This document shows positions 25,224 through 62,364 of a stretch of 64,000 nucleotides of DNA, in pieces. The stretch is from Candidatus Woesearchaeota archaeon (GTDB taxonomy: Archaea > Nanobdellota > Nanobdellia > Woesearchaeales > UBA10216): assembly GCA_016185705.1 (NCBI GenBank), contig JACPMZ010000003.1:74900-138899 (forward strand). The letters run 5' to 3'. Position 1 is the stretch's first letter; every line of letters starts with the position of its first letter. Under the pieces are notes generated by a model, which was not told the DNA's origin, ran no database searches, and was given only the letters and a program-made list of their open reading frames with translations. The position numbers were made by a program, and so were the translations under genes.

Positions 25224-25274
25224 CCGCTGCTTTTTCCCTCCCCTTAATTTTTAAGGGAGGGAAAAAAGCAGCGG
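25224..25274. repeat. palindromic hairpin of the CCCTCCC...GGGAGGG family (ccgctgctttttccctcccc TTAATTTTTA agggagggaaaaaagcagcgg); followed by MITE-like right-end motif cttggaaagcttac
   Basis: perfect 20-bp stem; family recurs >10 times in window. Confidence 0.8.
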
Positions 25275-32052: not shown

Positions 32053-32090
32053 CTTATTGGCAGGACTGTTTTTAAAGGTTTCGGAAACGG

Positions 32091-32234
32091 GGTGAAGTCA
32101 AGTTAAGTGGCAAAACCGTCGCATCCTTCCCTGATTTTTTTCTCCCCCCCTTAAAAAATAAGGGGGGGAGAAAAAAATCAGCCAAGCAGGCATCGGCAAG
32201 CTCAGGATTGCAGGACACATAACTTGGCATTACC
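32091..32234. mobile_element. MITE-like element copy A (144 bp): TIRs ggtgaagtcaagtt / aacttggcattacc, central (C)7/(G)7 palindromic hairpin 32131-32182, flanked by 9-bp TSD cggaaacgg (32082-32090 and 32235-32243)
   Basis: direct observation of TIR, TSD and near-identity to copy at 52841-52982. Confidence 0.75.
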
Positions 32235-32351
32235 CGGAAACGGACTCTGCCGGAACTAAGAAACTTTCGCCATTCAGAAGTCCCGTAGAATAGGCAGAGC
32301 CCGAAAATTTACTGCCTGTGCAGCTGGGCTGGTATCCTGCCTTCCCTCTGC

Positions 32352-37644: not shown

Positions 37645-37782
37645 CTTATTGAAAAGTTCACGCAGCCTCGCTCTGTTGCTGGCTTCCCTTCCTACTTTTT
37701 CCCTCCCTTAAATATTCAAGGGAGGGAAAAAGCAGGAAGAACGGCGGGATAAACGCAGCGGTAAAGTGAACTTTTTTCAATA
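37645..37782. mobile_element. MITE-like element, subfamily 2: TIRs ccttattgaaaagttcac / gtgaacttttttcaatag with central hairpin 37688-37738 (cttcctacttttttccctccc TTAAATATTCAA gggagggaaaaagcaggaag)
   Basis: 17-bp inverted termini; interior homologous to 53029-53110 copy. Confidence 0.6.
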
Positions 37783-38522: not shown

Positions 38523-38703
38523 CTTAAACCACCTTTCCAGCAGCCACAGCCGTTAAAATTCATACCTGCTAATCAGAAAAAGTATGAATTTATATATAAA
38601 GTTTTCTGATTTGATTGGCTTTAATTTTTACTATCAGTTAGTAGTTAAAATAGAAAGATTTATAAAGGGGCGGCGCAGCATGAAACAAAGAGGGGGTATC
38701 AGA

Positions 38704-39081
38704 ATGGCAAACATTGTAGTAGCGGATGATGAACCTGCGATAAGCGGATTTTACAGAGACGCGCTTGAAATGCTTGGGCACACTGTTTATGCGGCAGGAA
38801 ATGGAAGGGAAGCAGCATCGTTACTTGAAGAACTTACTGGTGCCGGTACTGATGTTGGGCTTGTAATCACTGATTATAATATGCCAGGCATGAGTGGAAT
38901 TGAGCTGCTCCAATTTATGAGTGAGGGGCAATATGGAATGCAGGCCATAATGATATCATCTGATTCAGATAATGCAGTGGCTGAGAAAGCGGAGAGTGCA
39001 GGGGCAGCCTTTTACAAAAAGCCAATAAGGCTGCAGGATCTAATTGAAGCAGTAGAATCAGCGCTTGCGGGAAAAAAATGA
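38704..39081 (+). CDS. stand-alone CheY-like response-regulator receiver domain (longer ORF from 38584 probably not translated)
   Basis: IVVADDEP...D(Y)NMPGMSG...K receiver motifs; ATGA overlap with downstream GH15 gene. Confidence 0.75.
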   Translation: MANIVVADDEPAISGFYRDALEMLGHTVYAAGNGREAASLLEELTGAGTDVGLVITDYNMPGMSGIELLQFMSEGQYGMQAIMISSDSDNAVAEKAESAGAAFYKKPIRLQDLIEAVESALAGKK

Positions 39082-40076
39082 TAGCCAGAAGCATACAGAT
39101 ACTTGAAAAGCTGCAGCATCCGACAGGGCTGTTCAGCGCGAGCAGCGCTGCCGGAACAGGGTATAACAAGTCATGGATAAGGGATAATGTTTATGCTGCT
39201 CTCGGCTTTGAAGCTGTGAAGGATAATGCTGCGGTGAGGAAAGCTTACCGGGCGATGCTGGACATACTTCTGAAGCACGAATACAAAATAGACTGGATGA
39301 TAAGGCAGCCAACTCCCAAAGAAGCATTCAGGTACATACATGCACGCTACAACCCGCGAACAATGGAAGAGATATATGAGCCGTGGGGCAACAAGCAGAA
39401 CGACGCAGTAGGAGCAGTGCTGTTCAAAATTGGAGAGCTTGAAAGCAAAGGCATCAGAATCATACGCAACAGCAGCGATGTCAGGATTCTGCAAAAGCTT
39501 GTAAATTATCTTGCAGCTATTGAATACTGGCACGACCGCGACAACGGAATGTGGGAGGAAAGCGAGGAGGTGCATGCTTCAAGCGTTGGAGCGTGCGTTG
39601 CCGGATTAAAAATGATTCAGAAAATTGACGGAATTGAGGTTGAGCAGCAGCTGATAAAAAAAGGGGAAGAAACACTGAATGGACTGCTGCCGGCAGAGTC
39701 AGAAACAAAGGAAGCTGATTTGGCATTGCTGTCGCTGATTTATCCGTATAATGTTGTTAATGCAATGCAGCGGGATGCGATTTTAAACAATGTTGAACAG
39801 CAACTTGCCAGGAACAGAGGAGTGATAAGGTACAAAGGCGACAAGTATTACAGCAACGGCTCAGAGGCAGAATGGTGCTTCGGATTCCCGTGGCTCGCAA
39901 TAATTTATAAAAACCTTAACAGGGCTGACAAATACGCATATTACCTTAGAAAAACCCTTGAAATCGCAAACCCGGAGGGAGAGATTCCTGAACTTTACTA
40001 CGGCAACACCGCAGAATGCAATGAGAACTCGCCGCTTGCGTGGGCTCAGTCGCTTAGCGTGGTGGCGAGCGCATAA
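39078..40076 (+). CDS. glycoside hydrolase family 15-like (glucoamylase/glucodextranase-type alpha/alpha6 barrel) protein
   Basis: SWIRDN and GMWEE motifs characteristic of GH15. Confidence 0.65.
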   Translation: MIARSIQILEKLQHPTGLFSASSAAGTGYNKSWIRDNVYAALGFEAVKDNAAVRKAYRAMLDILLKHEYKIDWMIRQPTPKEAFRYIHARYNPRTMEEIYEPWGNKQNDAVGAVLFKIGELESKGIRIIRNSSDVRILQKLVNYLAAIEYWHDRDNGMWEESEEVHASSVGACVAGLKMIQKIDGIEVEQQLIKKGEETLNGLLPAESETKEADLALLSLIYPYNVVNAMQRDAILNNVEQQLARNRGVIRYKGDKYYSNGSEAEWCFGFPWLAIIYKNLNRADKYAYYLRKTLEIANPEGEIPELYYGNTAECNENSPLAWAQSLSVVASA

Positions 40077-40191: not shown

Positions 40192-41901
40192 TCAGCCGGA
40201 TTTCAGCTCCTGCAGCAGCTCAATCAGCGTAGAGCAGCTCCACGCCTGACTGAGGCAGCCCTCTGCTTTTTGCTGCGACGCAGAACTCAGCTCAGAGCAG
40301 CACCCAACAGCGCCAAGCCACAGCAAATCATTGACTGAAGCATCTTTTATTTTCTTAATGTAATAGCCGTATTTTTTCCTGTTGAGCCGGGCCATAACCA
40401 CTGCTGCCAAGTTGTTTATCCAATACCAGGAATCCCCGCGATGATATGATTTGCTGTTCTCTCCAGTGTAATTTTCCTGGAAAAGCGGATGCGCCTTGTC
40501 AATGCTGGCTAAGCCGCCCCAGTCAAGCCACAAATGCGGGAGCACATTGTCAAAGCATGTTTCCCATTCTTTCTTGCTTAAAAGCTTAGGATAAGCGTAA
40601 GCTGCTATGAACACGTTCGGCCTGATGGTGAAATCAAAGGCCAAATCTGCCAGGTATTTCCTGTTCCAGAAGCCAGCCCTGGCCTTATCTGCCATCGCTG
40701 ATTCCTGATTCCTGACAGACTGTTTTTTTGACAGCAGCCAGAGAAAGTTAAGCGAAGCCAATGTCAGGGCCTGGACTTCCACCGGGAAGCCCTCCCTTCC
40801 GTTATCGCCAAAATCCGTGTCCATCCACGACTCGTTTTTGCTGCTAAAAATCAATCCGCTCCTGCCGTAAAACTCCTGCTGCCGCCCAAGCGAGTTTTTC
40901 AGAGCTGCTTTCACTTCCAAAATCTCTGAGCCGGTCAATGCCTTCGCTTCGTAAAGCTGCCTCAGCCTGAAAAAAAGCCAGCCAACTGAATCCGATGAGC
41001 CGATGCCTATGCTGGCAATCCTCCCATCCCTGCCGATCCTGCCAAGATACCTAAAAAGCAGCCTTTTGCGCAGGAGCATGCCTGCTGCAGATGAAGAAAT
41101 GACAGAGTCCCTGCTCCAATACTGATAAAACCAGGGCAGGCCTGCATAAACATCCTCAGCTGTAACAAGAGCGTCATATGAGGACTTTGCCAGCTCCAGG
41201 ACGCTGCTTTTCCTGCTCTTCTCCTGCAGGCCATGCATATGGCTGAAAACGTATTCTGACTCTGAAAGAGCAGCATCCTCGCTTAAAGCAGCTGAAAAAA
41301 CCATTTTTGAGGCATGCACAGAGAACGCCCTGTAAACATACCGTTCAGAAAGCGAGCCCCGCTGCCTGTCAAGCCTGTAATCGCGCTTCACCCAGTGGCC
41401 CAGCTTATTACAAGCGCCATCAGACCTGACGGCAAGATACAGCTTAAACTCATCCAAACCGGCTGCGGAGTCCCTGCCGTCTGTTTTTTTCACAAACTCC
41501 ACAACAAGGGCGTTGTCTTTGAAGTGTGCATTGTAGTACCTTCCCCATTCCCTGAAGTCAGAAGCAAGCATGCAGTCAAGAAAAACATCCACATCCGCAC
41601 TTTTGGAGAGGACATAGCAAAGCGAGTTGTAGTAATGCGGCAGGAAAACGCTTTCACTACGGCTGCCCCTGATTATGGCTACCCTGCCCGGATAATAATC
41701 GAACTGCTGCGGCACATCTGCTGCCTGCAGGGATTCAATGACTTTGTAAAGCCTGTTTCCAAGCGATGCAAAGTATCCGTGGTACTTGCTTTCCGGATTA
41801 GACGAGAAACTAAAAAAAGAACCTGCTCTGTTTGTAAGAATAAAGCCGGGATTGTCAATGTCCTTTGAAAGCCCCAAACATTTGTTGTTTACCGTTGCCA
41901 T
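40192..41901 (-). CDS. amylo-alpha-1,6-glucosidase / glycogen-debranching-enzyme-like (GDE_C-type) protein
   Basis: 569 aa alpha/alpha-barrel-like sequence (DSWYWINN...), in alpha-glucan gene neighbourhood; family call by context + weak motif. Confidence 0.5.
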   Translation of the reverse strand: MATVNNKCLGLSKDIDNPGFILTNRAGSFFSFSSNPESKYHGYFASLGNRLYKVIESLQAADVPQQFDYYPGRVAIIRGSRSESVFLPHYYNSLCYVLSKSADVDVFLDCMLASDFREWGRYYNAHFKDNALVVEFVKKTDGRDSAAGLDEFKLYLAVRSDGACNKLGHWVKRDYRLDRQRGSLSERYVYRAFSVHASKMVFSAALSEDAALSESEYVFSHMHGLQEKSRKSSVLELAKSSYDALVTAEDVYAGLPWFYQYWSRDSVISSSAAGMLLRKRLLFRYLGRIGRDGRIASIGIGSSDSVGWLFFRLRQLYEAKALTGSEILEVKAALKNSLGRQQEFYGRSGLIFSSKNESWMDTDFGDNGREGFPVEVQALTLASLNFLWLLSKKQSVRNQESAMADKARAGFWNRKYLADLAFDFTIRPNVFIAAYAYPKLLSKKEWETCFDNVLPHLWLDWGGLASIDKAHPLFQENYTGENSKSYHRGDSWYWINNLAAVVMARLNRKKYGYYIKKIKDASVNDLLWLGAVGCCSELSSASQQKAEGCLSQAWSCSTLIELLQELKSG

Positions 41902-41903
41902 TG

Positions 41904-42881
41904 CTAAAATTCGGACTCCCCGCGATAAAACCTGGCAGCATCCTCGGGCGAGACTGTGTTGATGGTTATGCCGCTTGACAGCTCAAAGCCAGCCCAGTTG
42001 GCTATTCTTGGAGTTACTTCAACATGAAAATGCAGGTCGCTGCCAGCAGGAGAGTAATGCAAAAAATAATTATAAGCAGCGTTCAGCTTTTTCAGCTTCC
42101 TCAAGATGCTTAAAAGGATTTTTGCAAGGGAAGAAAGCTCCTCTTTGGTTAAGTCAGCGAGCGAAGTTACATGCCTTTTCGGAAAAAGCCAGACCTCATA
42201 ATTGAACCGGGAAGCATAAGGCGCAAAGGCAACTGCATCCGCGTTTTCAAAACACCTCCTGAAGCTGCCTTTCTCAATATCAATGATTTTGCAGTACCTG
42301 CACGGCTTTCCGGAAGCATCAGCTTCCTGCTGAACAATCTGCGGAATGAATGCTGTTGCAATAATCTGCGTGTGGCTGTGCTGCAAAGAAGCGCCGCCTT
42401 TGCTGCCGTGATTCTTGAAAATGGCAACGTAATTTATGCTGCGCCTGCCGCTTAACTCAGCAATTCTGCCTTTGTATATGGAAAAAAGCTCAGCTAATTC
42501 AGCGCTGCCCAAATCCCAGAGCTGCTTTTTTTTTGAAGGGGTCTCAACAATAATCTCATGCATGCCAAAAGCATCAGCAAAGGTAAAAAAAGTGTTGTCA
42601 GTCCTTACATCAGGATTGCCGAGAATGTCAACTGCAGGAAACTTGTTTGCAAACCACCTGAAGCGCCATTTCCTGTTTCCAATGCGGCCAATTTCAGCCG
42701 GAGTAAGGTGCTCATTGCCGGGGCAGAAAAAGCACAAGTCCTTCCCGGAGCTGTCAGGTTCACGCAGCTCCTGAGGCCGCCTGCCCCTGCCAGAAGCTAT
42801 AATCACCCAGCGGTCCAGGATGTAGTCTTTTCTCAGCTCCATATTATGCCCTCTCCAAAGCAAGATTGTAGGCGTTTTCAT
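41904..42881 (-). CDS. GalT-like HIT-family nucleotidyltransferase (galactose-1-phosphate uridylyltransferase / ADP-glucose phosphorylase type); likely start MELRKDYI at 42842
   Basis: CFFCPGNE (CxxCxGxE zinc site) and HSHTQ (HxHxQ) active-site motifs. Confidence 0.75.
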   Translation of the reverse strand: MKTPTILLWRGHNMELRKDYILDRWVIIASGRGRRPQELREPDSSGKDLCFFCPGNEHLTPAEIGRIGNRKWRFRWFANKFPAVDILGNPDVRTDNTFFTFADAFGMHEIIVETPSKKKQLWDLGSAELAELFSIYKGRIAELSGRRSINYVAIFKNHGSKGGASLQHSHTQIIATAFIPQIVQQEADASGKPCRYCKIIDIEKGSFRRCFENADAVAFAPYASRFNYEVWLFPKRHVTSLADLTKEELSSLAKILLSILRKLKKLNAAYNYFLHYSPAGSDLHFHVEVTPRIANWAGFELSSGITINTVSPEDAARFYRGESEF

Positions 42882-44613
42882 AATTCTTAATCATGCGCTT
42901 CCAATCAGTCAATGATGCAAGGTGCTTCGCATCTATCTTGTTCTTAATGCGCTCCTGCACGCCAAGCGAGCCATAATCATCCAGGATTTTTGCCAGCGCT
43001 TTCACAACCTCATCATCACCGACTCCAAAGCGCCTGACGACAAAAATGCCGGGAGATTCCTTATCCCGGCTTTGGTCGCATATATACCTCCCGTAGCCCG
43101 AAAGGTCAGTGGTTACCGAAGCCACCCCCAATGCAGCAGCTTCAACCGGAGTATAGCCCCACGGCTCATAGAAGCTCGGGAACACCCCCAAATGCGCGCC
43201 CTGCATTGCCTCGTAATAGGACAGGTCCAGCAAGCCATCCGAGCCAGTCAGATAAATAGGATAGAATACCACCTTAACCCGGTCAGCCTTCCTGTTCAGC
43301 AGGCCGGAAGCCTTAAAAGCATTAAATATCTGGTCAGAATCCTCGCTATGAACAGTATGCGTGGACAAAGGAGGAACCCCTGCCCGCTTAAACCTCAACA
43401 GCTTCTTCCTAACCTCATCAAGCAGCGAAGGACCAAGAAGATAGCTTTCATCGCAGGTTGACTTTGACGCAATCATGGACGTCAAAAGCCGCTCCATTAA
43501 AACTTCGTGCTCGTCTGTAATTGAATCCTTCACATCCTTAAAAAAAGACTTGTTTTCAGTCAACTCCGGCCTAATCTCCCCAACATTTCCCGGAACCCAG
43601 AAAAAAGCAACAATGGTTTTGCTGGACTTCCGCGCCTTCAGCTTCCGGTTCAGGTCGCCCAAAGCCCTTATGAAGATGTCAATGCCCTTTGCCCTGAACT
43701 CATACCTGGAAGCAAGGAAGTAAATCAGCGTGTCGTCAATGTCAAAGTCATAATACGGGAAAAAGTAGTAAAGCAAAAACTCCTTAATCTTGCTTTTGTA
43801 CAAGCGGTGCTTTATTGAGGCCTCCTCAAATGTCGGAAATTTGCCTGTATTAAGCCCGTTTGGCAGCACAACATCAACTTTTCTGCCCAAAAATTTTTCC
43901 GCCTCAATTGCCGTAATAGGGCTTACTGTCGTAAAGACATCAGCATTCTTTGCCGCCTGCTCCTCAATCTGGTGCTTGGGCAACATGCTCGTGCGGTACT
44001 CGGGCTTGCCGAGGTCAGCAGAAAACTTTGCATCATAAATGTCAAGCCCTGCGCCGGCAAAGCTCCTGCCCAAAACAGTTGCGTGGGTAGTGAAAACAGA
44101 GGCAACATTCGCCTTTCTGCCTTTCAAGTAAAGCAAAGCAGCGCCAGCCAGCCACTCATGGCAGTGCGCAATGGCCTTTTTGCCTTTTGAAAATTCTTCC
44201 ACAGCCATGCCTGCAGCATAAGAAAAAATAACAGGCTCGTCAAAATCAAAGTAAGAGGTGTACAGGGAATCTATCTTAAACATGTCCCATAACTCGGCCT
44301 TTACAAAGTCCTTTCTTGCAGTAAAACCGCTGAAGTCCAGGAGAATTGCACTGATTTCCGTGTCTGTAAGCCACTTGCCAAAATGGCAGACAATACCCTG
44401 CTCCTTCAGCCTGTTAAATGCGGCGTTAAACTCGTGGGGAACCGGCTCCTCAATAAACTCTGACCTGTGCTTATCGGGAAAATAAGGACCTATGGCAAAG
44501 TATTTCTCATAGCGGTCCCTGACATCAGCGGATTTGCTCTTAATAACAGTGTAAATGCCGCCTACCTTGTTGCAAACTTCCCAAGAAATCTCAAACAAGT
44601 ACGTGCTGCTCAC
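42844..44613 (-). CDS. glycogen synthase, GT3 (eukaryotic-type) family
   Basis: N-terminus FEISWEVCNKVGGIYTVIKSKS matches GT3 glycogen synthase signature (EVSWEVANKVGGIYTV). Confidence 0.8.
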   Translation of the reverse strand: MSSTYLFEISWEVCNKVGGIYTVIKSKSADVRDRYEKYFAIGPYFPDKHRSEFIEEPVPHEFNAAFNRLKEQGIVCHFGKWLTDTEISAILLDFSGFTARKDFVKAELWDMFKIDSLYTSYFDFDEPVIFSYAAGMAVEEFSKGKKAIAHCHEWLAGAALLYLKGRKANVASVFTTHATVLGRSFAGAGLDIYDAKFSADLGKPEYRTSMLPKHQIEEQAAKNADVFTTVSPITAIEAEKFLGRKVDVVLPNGLNTGKFPTFEEASIKHRLYKSKIKEFLLYYFFPYYDFDIDDTLIYFLASRYEFRAKGIDIFIRALGDLNRKLKARKSSKTIVAFFWVPGNVGEIRPELTENKSFFKDVKDSITDEHEVLMERLLTSMIASKSTCDESYLLGPSLLDEVRKKLLRFKRAGVPPLSTHTVHSEDSDQIFNAFKASGLLNRKADRVKVVFYPIYLTGSDGLLDLSYYEAMQGAHLGVFPSFYEPWGYTPVEAAALGVASVTTDLSGYGRYICDQSRDKESPGIFVVRRFGVGDDEVVKALAKILDDYGSLGVQERIKNKIDAKHLASLTDWKRMIKNYENAYNLALERA

Positions 44614-44690
44614 TCATCTCAACCCCTTTTCCCAGAATAATTGGCAGATTAGTATAAAATTCTATTGTTTTTTGGTAAAGCCAGGTTAAG

Positions 44691-44940
44691 TGCCAAAACC
44701 GTGCGCACACTGCGCAGATTTTTTTCTCTTTTCAGAAATTCAGCTCTGTTCTTTACTCCGCGCTTCATCTCCACCTCCCTTAATTTTTGAAGGGAGGTGG
44801 AGATGAAGCGCAATGGCAGCTTAAGCATGCGGTTTTTCGGAGATACCCAGCTTAGAAAGGAAAAAAACAGCCAAGCAGGCATCGGCAAGCTGAGGATTGC
44901 AGGGCATGCAAAACTTTACATTACTGCCTGCCCTGATTAT
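44691..44940. mobile_element. degenerate/composite MITE-like copy C (left arm ggtaaagccaggttaagtgccaaaaccgtgcgcacactgcgcag; right arm cagccaagcaggcatcggcaagctgaggattgcagg...acattact) interrupted by a different hairpin (44757-44810, cgcttcatctccacctccc TTAATTTTTGAA gggaggtggagatgaagcg)
   Basis: arms homologous to copies A/B; central segment replaced/inserted. Confidence 0.5.
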
Positions 44941-45021: not shown

Positions 45022-45330
45022 TTGAGAAGAACATTTTTGCAATTAAGGGAGCACATCCTGAGGGCATTGCTTGAAGGCCCTCTGACAATAAACCAGGTTG
45101 CCTGCAGGACAGGCATCAACTGGCGCACTGCAAAGCACCATCTCGAATTCCTTAAGTATAGAGGCATGGCAGCCGAGGTAGTAAGCTCATCCTATGTTAA
45201 GATATACAGGATAACAGAACAAGGCGGAAGCAGTTTCCCTGTGAAGCAGGCAGTAAAACGCGAGGCATTAGAAGTTGAGATTACACTTAATGGGAAGTCC
45301 CGCGAACTTGAAAAGGTGGAAATAAGATGA
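45022..45330 (+). CDS. winged-helix transcriptional regulator (ArsR/TrmB-like), 4-bp overlap with GT4 gene
   Basis: LTINQVACRTGINWRTAKHHLEFLKYRGMA HTH + wing. Confidence 0.55.
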   Translation: MRRTFLQLREHILRALLEGPLTINQVACRTGINWRTAKHHLEFLKYRGMAAEVVSSSYVKIYRITEQGGSSFPVKQAVKREALEVEITLNGKSRELEKVEIR

Positions 45331-46523
45331 GGGTGCTGATGTTTGGCTGGGAGTTCCCGCCTTTCAGCTCAGGCGGCCTGGGGTCAGCGTGCTATGGCCT
45401 TGCAAGAGCATTGAGCAGGGAGAATGTTGACATAACATTTGTGCTCCCGCAGGCAAACCCCATTGAATATGATTTCATGAAGGTAATAGCTGCCAACATA
45501 CCAAGACTCAAGCTGCGCGGCATAAAGTCCATGATAAGCGGATATGCAACTTCGCATGAATATGAGCAAAAAATTTTTCAGATGAAAATGAAAGCAGACC
45601 CTTCACTGGAAATTTACGGCCAGAACCTTATTGAAGAAGTTGAGAGGTATGCGAACAAAGCGGCGGAAATTGCCAGGGAGGAGGCGCACGACTTAATTCA
45701 CGCGCACGACTGGCTTACATTCAAAGCAGGCATAGCAGCAAAAAAAGCGTCAGGAAAACCGCTGGTTGTGCACGTGCACGCAACCGAATTTGACAGGACA
45801 GGAGGGCATGGAGTGAACCAGTACGTGTATGACGCGGAAAGGGAAGGCATGCATGCTGCAGACGCAATAATCGCTGTCAGCAACTACACCAAATCAAAGA
45901 TAATCCGCTACTATGCTGTAAGCCCTGAAAAAGTGCACGTTGTGCACAACGCCATTGACATTGACAGCACAGCAGCAAACCCGCAGCACAAAACAGGCAA
46001 GGTGGTGCTGTACCTTGGAAGGGTAACGCTGCAGAAAGGCCCGGACTATTTTGTTGACGCTGCGAAAAAAGTGCTGGAAAAAGAGCCTGATGCAAGGTTC
46101 ATTATCGCAGGAAAAGGCGACATGGAAACACGCCTTATCAACAAGGCAGCCAGCCTCGGCATATCTGACCGGGTGCTGTTCACAGGATTTTTGCGGGACA
46201 GCGACATAGCAAAGGCATACAGCATGGCAAGCTTGTATGTAATGCCCTCAGTTTCAGAGCCATTCGGAATAACTCCGCTGGAAGCAGCAGGCAACTGCAC
46301 GCCTGTTATGATATCAAAGCAGTCAGGCGTTTCAGAAGTATTAAACCACTGCCTTCGCGTTGACTTCTGGGACGTCAATGAAATGGCAAACAAAATACTG
46401 GCAGTGCTGCATCACAGGGAGCTGCAGGAAGCTCTTACAGAAAACAGCTTCCGGGAAGTCAGCCGAATGAGCTGGGCAAGCTCAGCCAAAAAATGCATGC
46501 AGGTATATGAGGCAGTGAAATGA
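45327..46523 (+). CDS. glycosyltransferase family 4 (retaining GT-B)
   Basis: EPFGITPLEAAGNCTPV (E-x7-E) motif; GT-B two-domain architecture. Confidence 0.8.
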   Translation: MRVLMFGWEFPPFSSGGLGSACYGLARALSRENVDITFVLPQANPIEYDFMKVIAANIPRLKLRGIKSMISGYATSHEYEQKIFQMKMKADPSLEIYGQNLIEEVERYANKAAEIAREEAHDLIHAHDWLTFKAGIAAKKASGKPLVVHVHATEFDRTGGHGVNQYVYDAEREGMHAADAIIAVSNYTKSKIIRYYAVSPEKVHVVHNAIDIDSTAANPQHKTGKVVLYLGRVTLQKGPDYFVDAAKKVLEKEPDARFIIAGKGDMETRLINKAASLGISDRVLFTGFLRDSDIAKAYSMASLYVMPSVSEPFGITPLEAAGNCTPVMISKQSGVSEVLNHCLRVDFWDVNEMANKILAVLHHRELQEALTENSFREVSRMSWASSAKKCMQVYEAVK

Positions 46524-46572
46524 GGCAGAGGAGCCAGCCAGGGCACAAAAGCTGACGACACCCAAAAATGAG

Positions 46573-46689
46573 GCTATGCCAGCTTTTGCGTGTTTCGCTG
46601 CCCGCTTTTTATTCCCTCCCTCGCAAATTAAGGGAGGGAATAAAAAGCGGGCGAGGCAGCGGAAAAAACACACTTAACTTGAAATTACC
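46573..46689. mobile_element. MITE-like copy D (reverse orientation) with CCCTCCC hairpin 46597-46653, flanked by 13-bp direct repeat acccaaaaatgag (46560-46572 / 46687-46699)
   Basis: right end cacacttaacttgaaattacc = reverse complement of family left TIR; exact flanking duplication. Confidence 0.65.
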
Positions 46690-46750
46690 CAAAAATGAGA
46701 AGATTTAAAAATTGCGGAATACACATTAAAGCACTTAAAGAGGGCGGGGT

Positions 46751-47953
46751 ATGGTAAGCGTATGCTTTTATTTCCAGGTGCATCAGCCAGAGCGGATAAG
46801 AAAGTACTCTGTCTTTGAGGTCGGGAAGAGCGCTGACTATTTCTTCCATCAGAAGAACAGGGAAATAATAGAACGGGTTGCAAAGAAATGCTACCTGCCG
46901 GCAAACGCGATAATTCTGGAACAGCTGAAAAAGCATGGCAGGCTTAAAGTTGCCTATTCTTTCAGCGGCGTCGTGCTTGAGCAGCTGGAGAAATACGTTC
47001 CCGAAGCAATCAGCTCTTTCCAGAAGCTTGCAGACACAGGAAAGGTTGAAATACTCGACGAGACCTACTACCACTCGCTGGCATTCCTTTATTCAAAAAA
47101 AGAGTTTTTTGAGCAGGTGAGAATGCACAGGCGCAAAATAAGCGAGCTGTTCGGGCAAAAGCCAAAAGTGTTCAGGAATACTGAACTGACGTACAACAAT
47201 GAGCTGGCAGCGACAGCAGCAGAGATGGGATACAAGGCAGTGCTGGCAGAGGGAGCAGACCACATACTCGGCTGGAGAAGCCCGAATTTCGTCTATAAGC
47301 CGGTAACTGCAGACATAAAGCTGCTGCTCAAGAACTACCGGCTCTCAGACGACATAGCATTCAGGTTCAGCAACCATGACTGGAAGCACTGGCCCCTTAC
47401 CGCAGAAAAATTCGCGTCCTGGGTGAACAGCATAAACGGGAACGGAAACTGCGTAAACCTGTTCATGGACTATGAAACATTCGGCGAGCACCAGTGGCCT
47501 TCAACAGGCATATTCAATTTCCTGAGAGCAGTGCCAGGCGAAATACTAAAGCATCCGGACAACGATTTCAGGACGCCAACTGAGATTGCAGAATTCAAGC
47601 CAGTCGGAGAGCTTGACGTGCCATTCACAGTCTCGTGGGCTGACGTGGAGAGAGACCTGAGCGCGTGGACTGGAAACAAGATGCAGCAGGCCGCACTGCA
47701 GAAAATATATGAAATGGAAGCCGCAATAAGGGGAAGCGGCAGCAAAAAGCTTATTGAAAACTGGAGGAAGCTCCAGACATCAGACCACTTCTACTACATG
47801 TGCACCAAGTGGTTCAATGACGGAGACGTGCATAAGTATTTTAACCCCTACGACTCGCCGTATGATGCGTTCATAGCATACATGAACATAATAAGCGACA
47901 TCAAGCAAAAGCTTAAACCAATTGAGGAAGCAATACCAACAATAATGAGGTGA
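46751..47953 (+). CDS. glycoside hydrolase family 57 (alpha-amylase/alpha-glucan-processing)
   Basis: FQVHQPER (HQP motif) and GH57 N-terminal barrel signature. Confidence 0.8.
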   Translation: MVSVCFYFQVHQPERIRKYSVFEVGKSADYFFHQKNREIIERVAKKCYLPANAIILEQLKKHGRLKVAYSFSGVVLEQLEKYVPEAISSFQKLADTGKVEILDETYYHSLAFLYSKKEFFEQVRMHRRKISELFGQKPKVFRNTELTYNNELAATAAEMGYKAVLAEGADHILGWRSPNFVYKPVTADIKLLLKNYRLSDDIAFRFSNHDWKHWPLTAEKFASWVNSINGNGNCVNLFMDYETFGEHQWPSTGIFNFLRAVPGEILKHPDNDFRTPTEIAEFKPVGELDVPFTVSWADVERDLSAWTGNKMQQAALQKIYEMEAAIRGSGSKKLIENWRKLQTSDHFYYMCTKWFNDGDVHKYFNPYDSPYDAFIAYMNIISDIKQKLKPIEEAIPTIMR

Positions 47954-47957
47954 TTTT

Positions 47958-48281
47958 ATGGGAAATAGAAAGAATGAGGAGCCGGTCAGCAAAAACATTA
48001 CTGAACTGGCAATACTGAGGTTCATGGAAGCGCCGAGCGGCAAGCAGTTTGTGCTGAATGACGGACGTCTGCTGAAAAATATCAAGGAACTGGCTGATGC
48101 GCTTGAGCACATGAGCGATGACGTATTCAAGCATCATGTTGCTCCCGGAAAAAACGATTTCAGCATCTGGGTGAGCGAAGTGCTGCAGGAAAATGACTTG
48201 GCAGACGACTTGACTGCTGTTGACAATCAGTTAAAGGCGCAATTGGCGGTGCTGAAGCACATAGCCAAGAAAGCATTTTGA
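47958..48281 (+). CDS. paralog 1 of a three-member tandem family of small proteins with conserved F..HH(V/A)..G(K)NDF..WV core; function unknown
   Basis: FKHHVAPGKNDFSIWVSEV; 5-nt gap after GH57 gene. Confidence 0.55.
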   Translation: MGNRKNEEPVSKNITELAILRFMEAPSGKQFVLNDGRLLKNIKELADALEHMSDDVFKHHVAPGKNDFSIWVSEVLQENDLADDLTAVDNQLKAQLAVLKHIAKKAF

Positions 48282-48282
48282 G

Positions 48283-48597
48283 GTGAAAAAAATGAAAAAA
48301 GACAAAGCGAATGAAGCCAGAAAGCTTCTGAGCAACGTAGAGCACTGGAAGGCATTCTGGGTGAACAAGGGACCCATATACAGGAATATTGCGGAGTTTG
48401 GGGCCAAGGTGGGAAACCTGAAGCCAGCCCAATTTGCGCACCACGTAAACAAAAGCAAGAACGACTTTGCAAAATGGGTGGATGAGGCAATCGGAGACAA
48501 GGTGCTTGCGAAAAGGCTGCGCAGCCTGAAAACAAAGCAGGCAATAGCCAGAGTGGTATCAGAGCGGGTAAGCGCGCTGAAAAAGCTTGCAAAATGA
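48283..48597 (+). CDS. paralog 2 of tandem small-protein family
   Basis: FAHHVNKSKNDFAKWVDEAIGDKVLAKRL; starts 2 nt after paralog 1. Confidence 0.55.
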   Translation: MKKMKKDKANEARKLLSNVEHWKAFWVNKGPIYRNIAEFGAKVGNLKPAQFAHHVNKSKNDFAKWVDEAIGDKVLAKRLRSLKTKQAIARVVSERVSALKKLAK

Positions 48598-48950
48598 ACC
48601 TGAGGAACAACGTAAGCCCTGAACACAGGTTTTACTGCGCTGACGGCAGCACCTTCCAAAACCTGAACGAGCTTGCATCCGGGCTGAGAAAAATGCGGCC
48701 CGAAGTATTCCAGCACCACGCAAACGCAGGCAACAATGATTTCCGCAACTGGGTGCGGGATGTGTATGGCAACAAACAGCTTGCAGACCAGATTGCCCGG
48801 GCAAAACTCAGCCTGGAAGCATCGCAGATAATAGCCAGGAAGCTGAATACAACCGGGAAGCGGGCAAAGCGCGCAATGAAAAATGAAAGACTGCATAAAA
48901 AAATCCACAAACACATAATGCGGCTTATGAGCAAATACAGGAAAAAATAA
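48594..48950 (+). CDS. paralog 3 of tandem small-protein family with extra basic tail
   Basis: FQHHANAGNNDFRNWVRDVYGNKQLADQI; ATGA overlap with paralog 2. Confidence 0.55.
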   Translation: MNLRNNVSPEHRFYCADGSTFQNLNELASGLRKMRPEVFQHHANAGNNDFRNWVRDVYGNKQLADQIARAKLSLEASQIIARKLNTTGKRAKRAMKNERLHKKIHKHIMRLMSKYRKK

Positions 48951-50885
48951 TTACTCTTTCAGTTCCCGAATTACTTCTACAACACCCGCAGAACACGGAT
49001 TTTTGGTTACATGGTCTGCCACTGCCTTAAGCTCCTTATGCGCATTTGCCACCGCAATCCTGTAACCAGGAACATTAAAAAGATCCACGTCATTCTGCGC
49101 GTCACCCATTATGATAGTTTTCTCAGGGTCAATATTCAAGTGGTTTAAAGCCATCTTTGTTCCAGCACCCTTATCAACACCACTCGGCAAAATCATGAAT
49201 TCACCAACATTATATTTGTAAGCAAGATGCTTGCTCAAAGGCCTGAGAATCTTCCTGACCTTTGCACTCTCCTTCCGGGGAACGCTGATGATGTTGAGGC
49301 CTGAGGTATGCTTTATCCTGGCGCCGGCAATCAGCCTTGCAGCGCGCCTAACCGTATTTGAAGAAAAAGTAATGAGCTGGTCTTTGGCAGGAATGTAAAT
49401 AACTGCGCCATTCTCTGCAACAATGCACTTCCACACGGGATATTTCCTGTACAGCTTGTGGACATACCTGAAAGGCCTTCCTGTCACGAGCACCAAAGGA
49501 ACTTTGAGCGATTTCAACTCCGCAATGACCTTGGCATTGACTTTCCCGGGAGCGTCTGTAATTGTCCGGTCAAAATCGGTTATAAAAGCATTGACATCCT
49601 TCAGATTCATCATCCTGGGCCCCCAATCGCTTTTGCTGCCGAGAATCCTGTGGTAAAGCATAATGTGCTCCTCAACTATCCTGCTCATTGAGAATTTTTC
49701 CTGCACAATCCTCAAGCTTTCCTGCCCCATCCTCTCATTGAGAGAGCTGTTGGTGAGAAGCTTTACAATAGCGCCAGCAGTCTCCCTGATGTTATCCACG
49801 CCCACCAAAAACCCATTAACCCTGTCCTGTATCTGCAAAGGAATTCCGCCTGCATCAGTCCCGACAACCGGCTTTCCGCAAGCCATAGCCTCAGTAACCG
49901 CAAGCCCAAAGCCCTCAATCTTTGACGTCAAAGCAGCAACATCAGCACACGCATATACAGAAGGCAGCTCATCATATGGAATTGTTCCTGTAAAAACAAT
50001 ATGCTGCTGCAGCTTCAACTGCCTGATGAGAGTGTGCACAGCATCCTCATACTTCTTGCGGATATCGGACATCTTGCTTGTCAATGACCTGCCGCCAACA
50101 AAAACCAGCTTTGCATCCGGAACTTTCCTCAGGATATAGGGCATTGCCCTGATAAGCTGCTCATGGCCGCTTTTGATGTCAATCCGCTGCGCAGACAATA
50201 TTATTTTGCACCTTTCCAAACCAAATTTTCTCTTAAACTCCGGATTTGGCCTTGTGGGAACAAACAATTTTGTGTTGGCAAGAGGGTAAAGAAGAGCTGT
50301 CTTTTCCCTTGGAAGCCCTGCCTTAACAGCATTCCTGACATATTCCGGCGATGAAAAGACAACACAGTCGTATTCAACCATCTGGTTTATCAGGAATTCC
50401 TTCAAATGCCTGGGCATAGCGCTGATGAAAGGAATGTGCCACCTGAGAAACAACGGAGTTCCGCGGGGAATGCCCTTGTACAAATACAGCAACTGGAAGT
50501 CATGAATGTCAACAATCTCAGCAGGCTCCTTCTGCAAAAGCTCATCCAGCTGCTCGGCAATAGCTTCATTAATCTCCATGTATTCCCTGAAGCCGGGCAT
50601 GTCGATTGCTTCCCTGTCAAAGCCGCCAAAGCCGTGGCACGCATTCCAGACGCTTTCCTTGAATTTCACAAAGCCCTCTATAAGCTCATCCTTTAAAGGC
50701 TCTTTCGGAACCCGGTAAACATTTATGCCCTTAACCTCCTCAAACGCCTCAGCACCGGAAGGCCGCAGGTGAATCTCAGCAACCTCGTGGCCGCGCTTCT
50801 GCAGCTCCCGGCCAAGATTCAGAAGATAAGTGGAAACGCCCCCGATGTTCGGATAAAAAGACTGCGAAGCAAAAAATATTTTCAT
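48951..50885 (-). CDS. bifunctional-type GT4 glycosyltransferase fused to C-terminal HAD-IIB phosphatase domain (sucrose-phosphate-synthase-like / glycoside-compatible-solute synthase-phosphatase architecture)
   Basis: GT4 EGFGLAVTEAMACGKPVV; HAD motif I ITDFDRTITD and motif IV GDAQND in C-terminal 230 aa. Confidence 0.75.
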   Translation of the reverse strand: MKIFFASQSFYPNIGGVSTYLLNLGRELQKRGHEVAEIHLRPSGAEAFEEVKGINVYRVPKEPLKDELIEGFVKFKESVWNACHGFGGFDREAIDMPGFREYMEINEAIAEQLDELLQKEPAEIVDIHDFQLLYLYKGIPRGTPLFLRWHIPFISAMPRHLKEFLINQMVEYDCVVFSSPEYVRNAVKAGLPREKTALLYPLANTKLFVPTRPNPEFKRKFGLERCKIILSAQRIDIKSGHEQLIRAMPYILRKVPDAKLVFVGGRSLTSKMSDIRKKYEDAVHTLIRQLKLQQHIVFTGTIPYDELPSVYACADVAALTSKIEGFGLAVTEAMACGKPVVGTDAGGIPLQIQDRVNGFLVGVDNIRETAGAIVKLLTNSSLNERMGQESLRIVQEKFSMSRIVEEHIMLYHRILGSKSDWGPRMMNLKDVNAFITDFDRTITDAPGKVNAKVIAELKSLKVPLVLVTGRPFRYVHKLYRKYPVWKCIVAENGAVIYIPAKDQLITFSSNTVRRAARLIAGARIKHTSGLNIISVPRKESAKVRKILRPLSKHLAYKYNVGEFMILPSGVDKGAGTKMALNHLNIDPEKTIIMGDAQNDVDLFNVPGYRIAVANAHKELKAVADHVTKNPCSAGVVEVIRELKE

Positions 50886-51040: not shown

Positions 51041-51176
51041 TCTCTGCGCCCTCCCCCTTCGAAAGTTAAGGGGGAGGAAATAGGGCGCAGTTGCAATCAA
51101 ACAGCAAACTATATGCGGGGGCAGATATGCGGCGTGCGCAGGCAGCGGGAACAAACACACTTAACTTAAAATTACC
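51041..51176. mobile_element. MITE-like copy E (reverse orientation): imperfect CCCTCCCCC hairpin 51044-51090 and right end gcgcaggcagcgggaacaaacacacttaacttaaaattacc
   Basis: homologous to copy D over hairpin-to-terminus segment. Confidence 0.5.
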
Positions 51177-51360
51177 ACAAAAAAGTGAGCTGTAAGGTTA
51201 GCGTCACCTGGCATCTGTTTAATTTGTAACTCTGAGCGTTTAGGACAAAACAGGTGGTTAGGTATGATTAGATTATCTGGTGGAAACTCACCACAGATTT
51301 AGTGCTTTCCCAACAAAGTAGAGTATCAAAATGATAATCAAGATACCAACCAAATCCGTT

Positions 51361-51713: not shown

Positions 51714-51884
51714 ATGACAAAGCCACCAAAAGGAGCTGTAACAGCACAGCAGTTTTTAAAAGCGTACCTGGCTATGGAACGGCCAACCACAACGCACCTG
51801 TTCTACACCAAAGGGGTGCTTGACTTTCTGGTGGGAATGATAATAGGAGTTGTTATAGGGATAATTGTTGCTAACTTTGTCTGA
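51714..51884 (+). CDS. possible 56-aa tail-anchored small membrane protein (below 60-aa ORF cutoff)
   Basis: MTKPPKGAVTAQQFLKAYLAMERP...GVLDFLVGMIIGVVIGIIVANFV. Confidence 0.3.
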   Translation: MTKPPKGAVTAQQFLKAYLAMERPTTTHLFYTKGVLDFLVGMIIGVVIGIIVANFV

Positions 51885-51914: not shown

Positions 51915-51965
51915 CTTCCTGCTTTCCCCCTTCCTGACAAATTAAGGGAGTGAGAAAGCAGGAAG
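51915..51965. repeat. hairpin of the family (cttcctgctttccccc TTCCTGACAAATTAA gggagtgagaaagcaggaag)
   Basis: 12-bp outer stem + degenerate core. Confidence 0.6.
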
Positions 51966-52793: not shown

Positions 52794-52840
52794 AGCAGTT
52801 ATTCTGCTGTTATGGGTTTATAAAATTATGGAAGCGGGGG

Positions 52841-52982
52841 TAATTTCAAGTTAAGTGGCAAAACTGTCGCACACTGCTCTGATTTTTTTCTCCCCCCCCT
52901 TAAAAAATAAGGGGGGAGAAAAAAATCAGCCAGGCAGGCATCGGCAAGCTCAGGATTGCAGGACACACAACTTGACATTACC
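52841..52982. mobile_element. MITE-like element copy B (142 bp): TIRs (gg)taatttcaagtt / aacttgacattacc, central (C)8/(G)6 hairpin 52880-52929, flanked by 10-bp TSD ggaagcgggg (52831-52840 / 52983-52992)
   Basis: direct observation; ~90% identical to copy A. Confidence 0.8.
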
Positions 52983-53028
52983 GGAAGCGGGGCGCCATTG
53001 GAATGCTCATGCAAATTCGTGCCTTCAG

Positions 53029-53110
53029 CTTTCCTGATTTTCACCTCCCTAAATATTAAGGGAGGGGAAAACCAGGAAGAGCGGCGAGATAAAGGCAGCG
53101 TCTGAAACGC
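53029..53110. repeat. subfamily-2 hairpin copy (ttcctgattttcacctccc TAAATATTAA gggaggggaaaaccaggaagagcggcgagataaaggcagcg) immediately downstream of MITE copy B
   Basis: homologous to interior of 37645-37782 element. Confidence 0.6.
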
Positions 53111-62314: not shown

Positions 62315-62364
62315 CGCTTTATTTTCTCCGCCCTTAACTTTAGGGGAGGGGAGAAAATAAAGCG
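62315..62364. repeat. hairpin of family (cgctttattttctccgccc TTAACTTTAG gggaggggagaaaataaagcg)
   Basis: perfect ~19-bp stem with GGGAGGG core. Confidence 0.7.

What the first reader, a model, noticed from the sequence alone, without database searches (positions are those of the whole stretch)
47958..48950. Three tandem paralogous small proteins of unknown function inside the glycogen island
Genes 47958-48281, 48283-48597 and 48594-48950 are packed with 1-4-nt spacing or overlap. They share an approximately 90-aa core with invariant features, notably (F/L)..L...L..M....F.HH(V/A)..(G/S)(K/N)NDF..WV..(V/A).....LA..(L/I). The third has an added Lys/Arg-rich tail. They sit between GH57 and a GT4-HAD fusion and are flanked by MITEs. 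The family is unassigned.
Basis: seen in the sequence. Interest (0 to 1): 0.6.

Follow-up and report, generated by a model that had tools for sequence, protein, structure and literature searches.

The report
OrfY-like accessory proteins of glycogen operon
Three small tandem genes in a Woesearchaeota (DPANN archaeon) glycogen gene cluster are single-module members of the uncharacterised OrfY/DUF5752 family, are linked to sugar-transferase genes in many genomes, and probably form a non-catalytic, partly membrane-anchored helper complex for alpha-glucan synthesis.

Summary
Three co-directional, tightly packed paralogous genes sit at 47958-48950 (BLASTP E 3e-12 to 2e-15) and share the stated motif.

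The claim that the family is unassigned is wrong. All three match Pfam DUF5752 (PF19027). The only solved relative is OrfY of Thermoproteus tenax (PDB 4CSO), and the AlphaFold model of the first protein matches nothing else. Function remains unknown and I found no literature.

New findings:
- **One module each.** Each protein is one module of the two-repeat OrfY architecture.
- **Conserved synteny.** The order HTH, GT4/5-type glucosyltransferase, GH57, DUF-a, DUF-b, sometimes DUF-c, recurs across Woesearchaeota/Nanoarchaeia. GH57 lies upstream on the same strand in 63 of 68 testable loci.
- **A missed fourth part.** A 56-aa transmembrane mini-protein (51714-51884) is homologous to the C-terminal membrane anchor that is fused to DUF-c in other lineages.
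- **Same theme elsewhere.** The canonical two-repeat form sits directly after GT20 trehalose-phosphate-synthase genes in soil metagenome contigs.

No phage, defence or mobile-element match was found.

Best reading, inferred rather than shown: a non-catalytic hetero-oligomeric adaptor or regulator of retaining alpha-glucosyltransferases, tethered to the membrane in some lineages. It is a new variant of a known uncharacterised family and is moderately interesting.

The parts
47958..48281 (+). DUF5752-a: single OrfY-like module, 107 aa, acidic core (pI 5.8)
   Evidence: Pfam PF19027 E 3.1e-7, 30.4 bits. AF2 model pLDDT 84; the only PDB fold match is 4CSO, prob 0.98-0.99. It is the first gene of the DUF array in the loci. 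An SD-like GAGGTG lies upstream.
48292..48597 (+). DUF5752-b: single module, 101 aa (longest ORF from GTG 48283 = 104 aa), basic (pI 10.4)
   Evidence: Pfam PF19027 E 8.7e-6, 25.7 bits. BLASTP to a gives 3e-12. It is an orthologous 'b' gene of about 99 aa, second in most loci. Gene callers give 101 aa.
48594..48950 (+). DUF5752-c: single module plus Lys/Arg-rich C-terminal amphipathic helix (LHKKIHKHIMRLMSKYRKK), 118 aa
   Evidence: Pfam PF19027 E 1.1e-3, below the cutoff, but BLASTP gives 2e-15 to both a and b. Orthologous 'c' genes carry long linkers ending in a basic amphipathic motif or a TM helix. Hydrophobic moment 0.81.
51714..51884 (+). TM56: 56-aa tail-anchor-like membrane mini-protein, the detached C-terminal anchor of the c protein
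   Evidence: jackhmmer: homologous small genes lie directly after c in L001/2/3/7/9/11/12/14/16/18 (in L006 about 4.2 kb downstream of c). The same sequence forms the C-terminus of fused c proteins in L008 and L010 (E 1e-25 to 1e-33) and, more distantly, in L017/20/58/79/81. No Pfam hit.
46751..47953 (+). GH57 family protein (400 aa, no signal peptide) immediately upstream
   Evidence: PF03065 E 6.9e-78. Same-strand upstream neighbour in 63 of 68 loci.
45327..46523 (+). GT4/GT5-type retaining alpha-glucosyltransferase (glycogen-synthase/GlgM-like), 398 aa
   Evidence: Pfam Glycos_transf_1, Glyco_transf_4 and Glyco_transf_5. Best PDB hits are GlgM 6TVP (4e-20) and archaeal GlgA. It is the most constant neighbour of the DUF genes and is present even where GH57 is missing (L112).
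45022..45330 (+). Small ArsR-type winged-helix regulator, first gene of the operon (4-nt overlap with the GT)
   Evidence: PF01022 E 6.7e-6. Conserved at this position in most loci.
42844..44613 (-). GT3 (eukaryote-type) glycogen synthase, divergent from the operon
   Evidence: PF05693 E 1.4e-145. It is divergent in most loci. In eight loci it lies co-directionally right after the DUF genes.
48951..50885 (-). TreT/SPS-like GT4 fused to a HAD phosphatase; lineage-specific insertion between c and TM56
   Evidence: Pfam Glycos_transf_1 + Hydrolase_3/S6PP. Best PDB hit is T. uzoniensis TreT 6ZJ4 at 1e-21. Not found at this position in the 80 genome loci. L001 has a different TreT-like GT4 there.

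Best explanation
The three genes encode single-module members of the OrfY/DUF5752 family. They are made together with a GT4/5-type alpha-glucosyltransferase and a GH57 enzyme from one operon. I propose that they are non-catalytic accessory subunits. An acidic 'a' subunit and basic 'b'/'c' subunits would assemble into a hetero-oligomer that reproduces, from separate chains, the two-repeat body of OrfY. This assembly would bind the co-encoded retaining (GT-B) alpha-glucosyltransferase(s), or a glucose-derived ligand of theirs, and so regulate or localise alpha-glucan synthesis. In this genome the c subunit, through its basic amphipathic C-terminal helix and the detached 56-aa transmembrane partner, would hold the assembly at the cytoplasmic face of the membrane. 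Shown: family membership, fold, paralogy, operon structure, conserved synteny and homology of the membrane-anchor. Inferred: hetero-oligomerisation, the binding partner, and the regulatory or tethering effect.
For: Family and fold:
- PF19027 hits.
- Profile hit to both repeats of OrfY 4CSO, E 1.2e-6 and 2.5e-7.
- Foldseek finds only 4CSO.

Co-expression:
- 4-nt gap to GH57, an ATGA overlap between b and c, and SD-like motifs.
- The median gap between the first and second DUF genes is 4 nt across loci.

Conserved link to alpha-glucosyl transfer in three settings:
- Woesearchaeota/Nanoarchaeia: HTH, GT4/5, GH57, a, b, sometimes c. GH57 is upstream in 63 of 68 loci. GT3 synthase is adjacent, and in eight loci it directly follows the DUF genes.
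- Variants where the DUF genes follow the GT directly without GH57 (L112) or are interleaved with it (L114).
- The canonical two-repeat DUF5752 (P0243, Pfam E 1e-43) overlaps by 4 nt the end of a 768-aa GT20 gene in about 20 soil metagenome loci.
- From my own knowledge (Kouril et al. 2008, Arch Microbiol 190:355; not retrievable here), orfY precedes treT (GT4) in T. tenax.

Non-redundant paralogues:
- The order a-b is kept in 61 of 84 loci (ab 43, abc 18).
- The first-gene core is net negative in 85% of loci, and the later genes are neutral to basic.

Membrane anchor:
- TM or amphipathic C-termini occur on the last paralogue in many lineages.
- TM56 is homologous to those tails.
- Linkers are basic in some lineages and acidic in others, as expected of a spacer.

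No catalytic family, phage or defence match.
Against: - No experiment or interaction prediction supports complex formation.
- 43 of the sampled loci have only a and b with no detectable anchor, so membrane tethering cannot be the core function.
- The module also occurs fused to KaiC-like ATPases, HerA-like ATPases, TrmB-HTH + cold-shock domains and long coiled-coil proteins. It is therefore a general-purpose module, not a glucan-specific one.
- The depositors of 4CSO labelled OrfY a transcription factor.
- The 80 archaeal loci are the best of 480 hits and come from related lineages, so the synteny counts are not independent events.
Confidence: 0.45

Rival explanations
1. They are nucleic-acid-binding regulators. 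These would be transcription factors or RNA binders that control the glycogen operon, as the label on the OrfY structure suggests.
For: - PDB 4CSO is deposited as 'OrfY protein, transcription factor'.
- b and c are very basic (pI 10.4 and 10.9).
- Many c-type linkers are extremely Lys/Arg-rich.
- One relative fuses the module to a TrmB HTH and a cold-shock domain (P0051).
Against: - The operon already begins with a dedicated ArsR-type wHTH.
- The module matches no HTH or other DNA-binding fold in the PDB.
- The core of the first paralogue is acidic in 85% of loci.
- Linkers are acidic in some lineages (L072, L075).
- Two or three paralogous regulators, one of them membrane-anchored, for a single operon would be unusual.
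Confidence: 0.22
2. The module is a small-molecule sensor for a glucose-derived metabolite such as NDP-glucose, a glucose phosphate, maltose or trehalose. It would pass that signal to whatever it is attached to or encoded with.
For: - The strictly conserved polar loop HH(V/A)NxxKNDFxxW looks like a ligand site rather than a core element.
- The module is promiscuously fused to ATPases and an HTH, as sensor domains are.
- In P0051 it sits downstream of a TrmB-type HTH, where, from my own knowledge of TrmB, a sugar-binding effector domain sits.
- All three gene contexts involve NDP-glucose-using enzymes.
Against: - No similarity to any known ligand-binding fold.
- The HH pair is not conserved in the second repeat of the canonical form (YLHF in P0243 and P0244).
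- This reading overlaps with, rather than excludes, the best explanation.
Confidence: 0.15
3. The synteny is a passenger effect. DUF5752 would be a generic DPANN structural or interaction module with no role in glucan metabolism.
For: The family is large (4737 cluster representatives). Many members lie in unrelated architectures such as coiled-coil proteins and KaiC or HerA fusions.
Against: - Translational coupling to GH57 or the GT, and retention of the link while gene order is reshuffled (L026, L033, L112, L114, L116).
- An independent link to GT20 in soil metagenome contigs.
- Glucan-related neighbours even in one locus lacking GH57 (a GH15-like protein in L029, identified by eye only).
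Confidence: 0.1

Closest known systems
OrfY of Thermoproteus tenax (PDB 4CSO) / Pfam DUF5752 (PF19027)
   Same: Same sequence family and fold, with the NDFxxW helix-capping motif and an HH-containing preceding helix. The gene sits next to a retaining alpha-glucosyltransferase. For OrfY that is treT, from my own knowledge. For the canonical form in soil metagenome contigs it is GT20.
   Different: OrfY and the Pfam model contain two repeats in one chain of about 210-220 aa. Here each gene encodes one repeat (about 100 aa), and two or three diverged copies are kept side by side. One copy has a membrane-targeting tail. The partner pathway is glycogen-type (GT4/5, GH57, GT3) rather than trehalose.
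Activating glycosyltransferase-TPSP complex of T. tenax (PMC3634074)
   Same: Precedent for an operon-encoded partner protein that is needed for full activity of an archaeal alpha-glucosyl transfer enzyme. A mechanosensitive channel gene is linked there, and an MscS-like gene also lies near the GT20-DUF5752 pair.
   Different: The activator there is itself a GT4-fold protein and is not related to DUF5752. This is an analogy of logic only.
Non-catalytic glucan-organising tethers (mammalian Stbd1; plant PTST2/MFP1), cited from my own knowledge
   Same: These are small non-enzymatic proteins. Via a membrane anchor plus a binding module they fix glycogen or starch-initiating enzymes to a membrane. 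That matches the module + long linker + TM architecture of the c-type proteins.
   Different: No sequence or fold relationship. Those proteins use CBM20/CBM48 or coiled coils. Glucan or enzyme binding by DUF5752 is untested.
Glycogenin (GT8), the primer for GT3 glycogen synthases
   Same: It addresses the same gap. DPANN archaea have GT3 synthases but no recognisable glycogenin (review PMC11046441). The DUF genes lie beside GT3, and in eight loci directly before it.
   Different: DUF5752 has no GT fold and no conserved Tyr, Ser or Thr acceptor among its invariant residues. A priming role is pure speculation.

Membership tests
Pfam DUF5752 (PF19027) / OrfY family | Sequence match to the family HMM above the gathering score (23 bits) | tested here: met
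   a scores 30.4 bits and b 25.7 bits, both above the cutoff. c scores 18.7 bits, below it, but c is linked by BLASTP 2e-15 to a and b.
Pfam DUF5752 (PF19027) / OrfY family | Conserved NDFxxW motif preceded by an (F/Y)xHH helix | tested here: met
   Invariant in a, b and c and in 57 diverse relatives. It aligns to YTNDFARW and GRNDFSRW of 4CSO.
Pfam DUF5752 (PF19027) / OrfY family | Fold similarity to the solved OrfY structure | tested here: met
   The AF2 model of a (pLDDT 84) has 4CSO chains A, B and D as its top three Foldseek PDB hits, prob 0.91-0.99, TM(query) 0.45-0.49. Nothing else exceeds prob 0.1. E-values are modest (0.04-0.14). b and c were not modelled.
Pfam DUF5752 (PF19027) / OrfY family | Two tandem repeats of the module in one polypeptide (model length 208) | tested here: not met
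   Each window protein covers only one half of the Pfam profile: a covers 124-196, b 54-84 and c 133-188. The canonical P0243 covers 2-207. They are therefore filed as a single-module variant.
Pfam DUF5752 (PF19027) / OrfY family | Gene adjacent to a retaining alpha-glucosyltransferase gene (an empirical association, not a formal criterion) | tested here: met
   A GT4/5-type GT lies in the same operon in the window and in relatives. GT20 precedes the canonical form.
Helix-turn-helix transcription factors (ArsR/TrmB/HxlR type) | Recognisable HTH or winged-helix domain | tested here: not met
   The only hit is a sub-threshold HxlR match for b (E 0.037, 14.3 bits against a cutoff of 20.8). There are no wHTH structures among the Foldseek hits.
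Carbohydrate-binding modules / starch-binding domains | Match to a CBM family or beta-sandwich fold | tested here: not met
   No Pfam or NCBIfam CBM hit. The predicted fold is a small alpha/beta domain with five helices.
   Best PHROG E-value is 0.014, in a family of unknown function. PADLOC gave no hits. BFVD gave none below E 0.8.
MITEs (claimed to flank the genes) | Multi-copy short element with terminal inverted repeats and target-site duplication, directly flanking the genes | tested here: inconclusive
   Interspersed 50-180-nt repeats with a palindromic core (CCCTCCCT...AGGGAGGGA) recur in intergenic spacers of the window. TIR and TSD structure was not resolved. None abuts genes a-c.

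The most novel reading that the evidence does not exclude
The DUF5752 a/b/c(+TM56) assembly is the missing initiation factor of DPANN glycogen synthesis. It would be a protein platform, anchored to the membrane in some lineages, on which the GT4/5-type enzyme starts a glucan that the primer-dependent GT3 synthase then extends. That would make it a functional analogue of glycogenin in organisms that have none.
Probability: 0.06. Interest if true: 0.8.

Novelty: new variant of a known kind. Interest (0 to 1): 0.5.

Why it matters
DPANN archaea carry eukaryote-type GT3 glycogen synthases. A recent review states that how these are primed and regulated, and what the neighbouring GT4 does, is unknown (PMC11046441). 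Woesearchaeota papers read the GH57 gene simply as a starch-degrading amylase (PMC8421398, PMC11606122).

This work shows that two to four conserved, uncharacterised OrfY-like genes, one of them membrane-anchored, belong to the same operon. It adds concrete and cheaply testable candidates to the pathway. It also gives the orphan structure 4CSO / DUF5752 a consistent genomic theme: partnership with NDP-glucose-using GT-B enzymes (GT4, GT5, GT20).

Tried and rejected
- **Literature.** Searches for DUF5752, PF19027, OrfY + T. tenax, and OrfY + trehalose found no relevant paper. Kouril et al. 2008 is not held. The orfY-treT operon therefore rests on my memory.
- **OrfY orthologue search.** T. tenax synteny could not be verified with the tools.
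- **Broad locus search.** The search for related loci with the broad alignment A3 failed for lack of a conserved stretch. A2 was used instead, which biases the loci towards orthologues.
- **Mapping a, b and c onto OrfY repeats.** The canonical-family HMM gave a 58 rep1 / 35 rep2 and b 11 rep1 / 58 rep2. Pfam maps a to rep2 and b to rep1. The results contradict each other, so no assignment was made.
- **Heterodimer modelling.** The natural two-module protein P0171 had no alignment depth for repeat 1 (pLDDT 50-75, pTM 0.57), so it says nothing about inter-module packing.
- **Artefact hit.** The PDB hit 5LQ5 is caused by a C-terminal His-tag aligning to the HH motif.
- **Conserved GT4-HAD partnership.** Rejected, because the gene is absent from this position in the 80 genome loci.
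- **Recently acquired island.** Rejected, because the gene order is conserved across the clade.

Full report
**Observation**

The window holds three co-directional ORFs at 47958-48281 (107 aa), 48283-48597 and 48594-48950 (118 aa).

- The second most likely starts at ATG 48292 (101 aa). A GAGGTG motif lies just upstream of that ATG, and independent gene calls give 101 aa.
- Gene a starts 4 nt after the GH57 stop. Genes b and c overlap in ATGA. The stop of c touches the stop of a convergent GT4-HAD gene.
- The proteins are clear paralogues: BLASTP E 3e-12, 2e-15 and 2e-15 at 28-38% identity.
- They share the invariant pattern F..L.DG....N..EL........F.HH....(K/N)NDF..W.......LA.
- No other copy exists in the window.
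- An exact match names the source as a Candidatus Woesearchaeota archaeon, where all three are annotated 'hypothetical protein' (HYX10_00665, _00670 and _00675).

**Family**

The family is not unassigned.

- All three hit Pfam DUF5752 (PF19027): a 30.4 bits and b 25.7 bits against a cutoff of 23, and c 18.7 bits.
- The 208-position Pfam model consists of two repeats of the module seen here. Each window protein covers one half of it. A canonical member, P0243, covers positions 2-207 with E 1e-43.
- A profile of the family hits one solved structure, PDB 4CSO, 'OrfY protein, transcription factor' of Thermoproteus tenax. It hits both of its repeats (E 1.2e-6 and 2.5e-7).
- An AlphaFold2 model of protein a (pLDDT 84, core above 90) is a beta-hairpin followed by five helices.
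- In Foldseek against the PDB this model finds only 4CSO (prob 0.91-0.99, TM about 0.46-0.49). Nothing else rises above noise.
- PHROGs, PADLOC and viral structures gave nothing.
- No paper in the library mentions DUF5752, PF19027 or this OrfY.

**Size and architectures of the family**

An exhaustive HMM search found 4737 cluster representatives, 3117 of them below 1e-10.

- Most are single modules of 100-140 aa.
- Others are 400-540-aa proteins with an acidic N-terminal region, a coiled coil and two C-terminal modules.
- Fusions to KaiC-like ATPases, HerA-like ATPases and a TrmB-HTH + cold-shock protein also occur.
- Some members end in a TM helix.

The module is therefore a general building block and not intrinsically a glucan domain.

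**Conserved context**

The subfamily in the window is tightly tied to alpha-glucan genes.

- In two close relatives with Pfam-annotated gene calls the order is GT3 synthase (divergent), small HTH, GT4/5-type GT, GH57, DUF, DUF, DUF.
- A scan of one genome per species returned 480 relatives. The best 80 loci were all labelled Woesearchaeota, Nanoarchaeia or, doubtfully, 'Methanosarcinales' MAGs.
- I annotated those loci by searching their ORFs with the window's own proteins.
- 68 loci have enough upstream sequence to test. GH57 lies on the same strand within 300 nt in 47 of them, within 6 kb in 16 more, and is absent in 5.
- One of those five, L029, has what I judged by eye to be a GH15-like glucoamylase downstream.
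- In eight loci the GT3 synthase follows the DUF genes in the same direction.
- More distant relatives reshuffle the order but keep the link. L112 has GT, DUF, DUF, DUF without GH57. L114 has GT, DUF, GH57, DUF. L116 has GT, GH57, DUF, GH15.
- The most constant partner is therefore the GT4/5-type glucosyltransferase. Its best solved relatives are GlgM and archaeal GlgA.

Caveat: these loci are related lineages chosen by similarity, so the counts are not independent events.

**Paralogue structure**

- By best match to a, b or c, gene order is 'ab' in 43 loci and 'abc' in 18. At least two diverged paralogues are thus maintained.
- The core of the first gene is net negative in 85% of loci. The later genes are neutral to basic. 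In the window the pI values are 5.8, 10.4 and 10.9.
- OrfY carries two modules in one chain. The persistence of paired, translationally coupled single-module genes suggests a hetero-oligomer rebuilt from separate chains. This is an inference.
- Attempts to map a, b and c onto specific OrfY repeats gave contradictory results.
- Modelling of a pair was not possible or not informative.

**A fourth component**

- The last paralogue in many lineages has a 60-130-residue linker followed by a C-terminal TM helix or a conserved basic amphipathic end. The linker is very basic in some lineages and acidic in others.
- The window ORF 51714-51884 encodes 56 aa: MTKPPKGAVTAQQFLKAYLAMERPTTTHLFYTKGVLDFLVGMIIGVVIGIIVANFV.
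- It is homologous to small genes directly after c in ten loci (in an eleventh, L006, about 4.2 kb downstream). It is also homologous to the C-terminal tail of fused c proteins in L008 and L010 (E 1e-25 to 1e-33).
- The ancestral array is therefore a-b-c-TM, or a-b-c::TM where the anchor is fused.
- In the window the array is split by the convergent GT4-HAD gene. That gene's best solved relative is TreT of T. uzoniensis. It is not at this position in the 80 genome loci.
- In L001 a different TreT-like GT4 and a GH15 gene occupy the same gap.
- About half of the loci ('ab' type) show no anchor, so tethering is an add-on.

**The canonical form**

- The two-repeat DUF5752 P0243 overlaps by 4 nt the end of a GT20 (trehalose-6-phosphate-synthase family) gene.
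- A metagenome scan gave 23 loci at 37-97% identity. A 768-aa GT20 gene directly precedes DUF5752 wherever the upstream sequence is present. A Zn-peptidase gene follows and an MscS-type channel gene lies nearby.
- These loci are one or a few lineages of GC-rich soil organisms that I did not identify taxonomically.
- From my own knowledge (Kouril et al. 2008, not retrievable), orfY precedes treT (GT4) in T. tenax.
- GT4, GT5 and GT20 are grouped together as closely related retaining GT-B families that use NDP-glucose (review PMC11046441).

**Mechanism**

I commit to non-catalytic accessory subunits that act on the co-encoded alpha-glucosyltransferase(s). They would form a hetero-oligomeric, OrfY-like body that binds the enzyme or a glucose-derived ligand and regulates or localises synthesis. 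Membrane tethering through c and TM56 would apply in this lineage (confidence 0.45).

Rivals:
- **Nucleic-acid-binding regulator (0.22).** For: the PDB label, the basic tails and the HTH/CSD fusion. Against: an existing operon HTH, no DNA-binding fold, an acidic 'a' core and acidic linkers in some lineages.
- **Metabolite sensor (0.15).** The polar HHxNxxKNDFxxW loop supports it. It overlaps with the main model.
- **Passenger module (0.10).**
- **Glycogenin-like initiation platform (about 0.06).** This is the most novel reading not excluded. It is of interest because the review states that no glycogenin is known for DPANN GT3 synthases.

**Comparison and novelty**

- The genes are members of DUF5752/OrfY by sequence, motif and fold. 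They fail the two-repeat architecture, so they are a single-module, multi-gene, partly membrane-anchored variant.
- They work, by analogy only, like non-catalytic partners of glucan enzymes: the T. tenax GT-TPSP activator (PMC3634074), and Stbd1 or PTST/MFP1-type tethers (from my own knowledge).
- Published Woesearchaeota genomics treats the GH57 as a starch-degrading amylase and ignores these genes.

**Verdict**

This is a real feature and a new variant of a known but uncharacterised family. Its function is still inferred. Interest 0.5.

Noticed in passing
window 51714-51884 (+): A 56-aa transmembrane mini-gene. It is homologous to the C-terminal membrane anchor of DUF5752-c proteins in other lineages and to small genes that directly follow c in close relatives. 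Here it is separated from c by about 2.8 kb.
   Followed up: yes
window 48951-50885 (-): A GT4 (TreT / sucrose-phosphate-synthase-like) fused to a HAD phosphatase, probably a compatible-solute synthase. It is inserted between c and TM56 only in this lineage. L001 has a different TreT-like GT4 plus a GH15 gene in the same gap. Given the OrfY-TreT link this recurrence is suggestive, but it remains unexplained.
   Followed up: partly
window 46524-46750: A 227-nt spacer between the GT4/5 gene and GH57 contains a copy of an interspersed palindromic repeat (core CCCTCCCTCGCAAATTAAGGGAGGGA). In L001 and L002 these two genes overlap. It looks like an insertion of a small repeat element inside the operon.
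   Followed up: partly
window 44674-44924, 51055-51183, 51915-51965, 52816-53100; also 25224-25267, 32068-32243, 37688-37760, 62319-62360: A family or families of short intergenic repeats (up to 178 nt at 88% identity) is scattered through the window. They are MITE- or REP-like. Terminal repeats and target duplications were not resolved.
   Followed up: partly
window 38584-40076 (+): A stand-alone response-regulator receiver domain (165 aa) overlaps by 4 nt the start of a GH15 glucoamylase-like gene. This hints at phosphorylation-dependent control of glucan breakdown.
   Followed up: no
window 40192-42881 (-): The rest of the glycogen cluster lies here: a GDE_C (amylo-alpha-1,6-glucosidase) gene and a GalT/HIT-type nucleotidyl-transferase or phosphorylase gene, downstream of the GT3 synthase on the minus strand. 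L002 has the same set.
   Followed up: partly
L085-L107 (soil metagenome contigs): The canonical two-repeat DUF5752 always follows a 768-aa GT20 protein, with a 4-nt overlap wherever both gene ends are intact. The first about 278 residues of that GT20 protein have no Pfam match. An MscS-type channel and an HD-domain gene lie downstream on the other strand. This resembles the trehalose + mechanosensitive-channel module of T. tenax.
   Followed up: partly
P0027, P0029, P0040, P0054: A class of 390-540-aa proteins found in the family-wide search. They have an N-terminal amphipathic start (MVKxFxxGLLKKKEE), a repeated acidic DVPDELPxLAED motif, a coiled coil and two C-terminal DUF5752 modules. Function unknown.
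   Followed up: no
L112 8202-9887; L114 9404-11080: A conserved 558-561-aa protein without any Pfam hit directly follows the DUF5752 genes in two Nanoarchaeota-type loci. It may be a further operon member.
   Followed up: no
L006, L013, L017, L019 and about 30 other loci: Many contigs carrying this Woesearchaeota-type operon are titled 'uncultured Methanosarcinales archaeon'. The label is probably a taxonomic mis-assignment of DPANN MAGs. Not verified.
   Followed up: no
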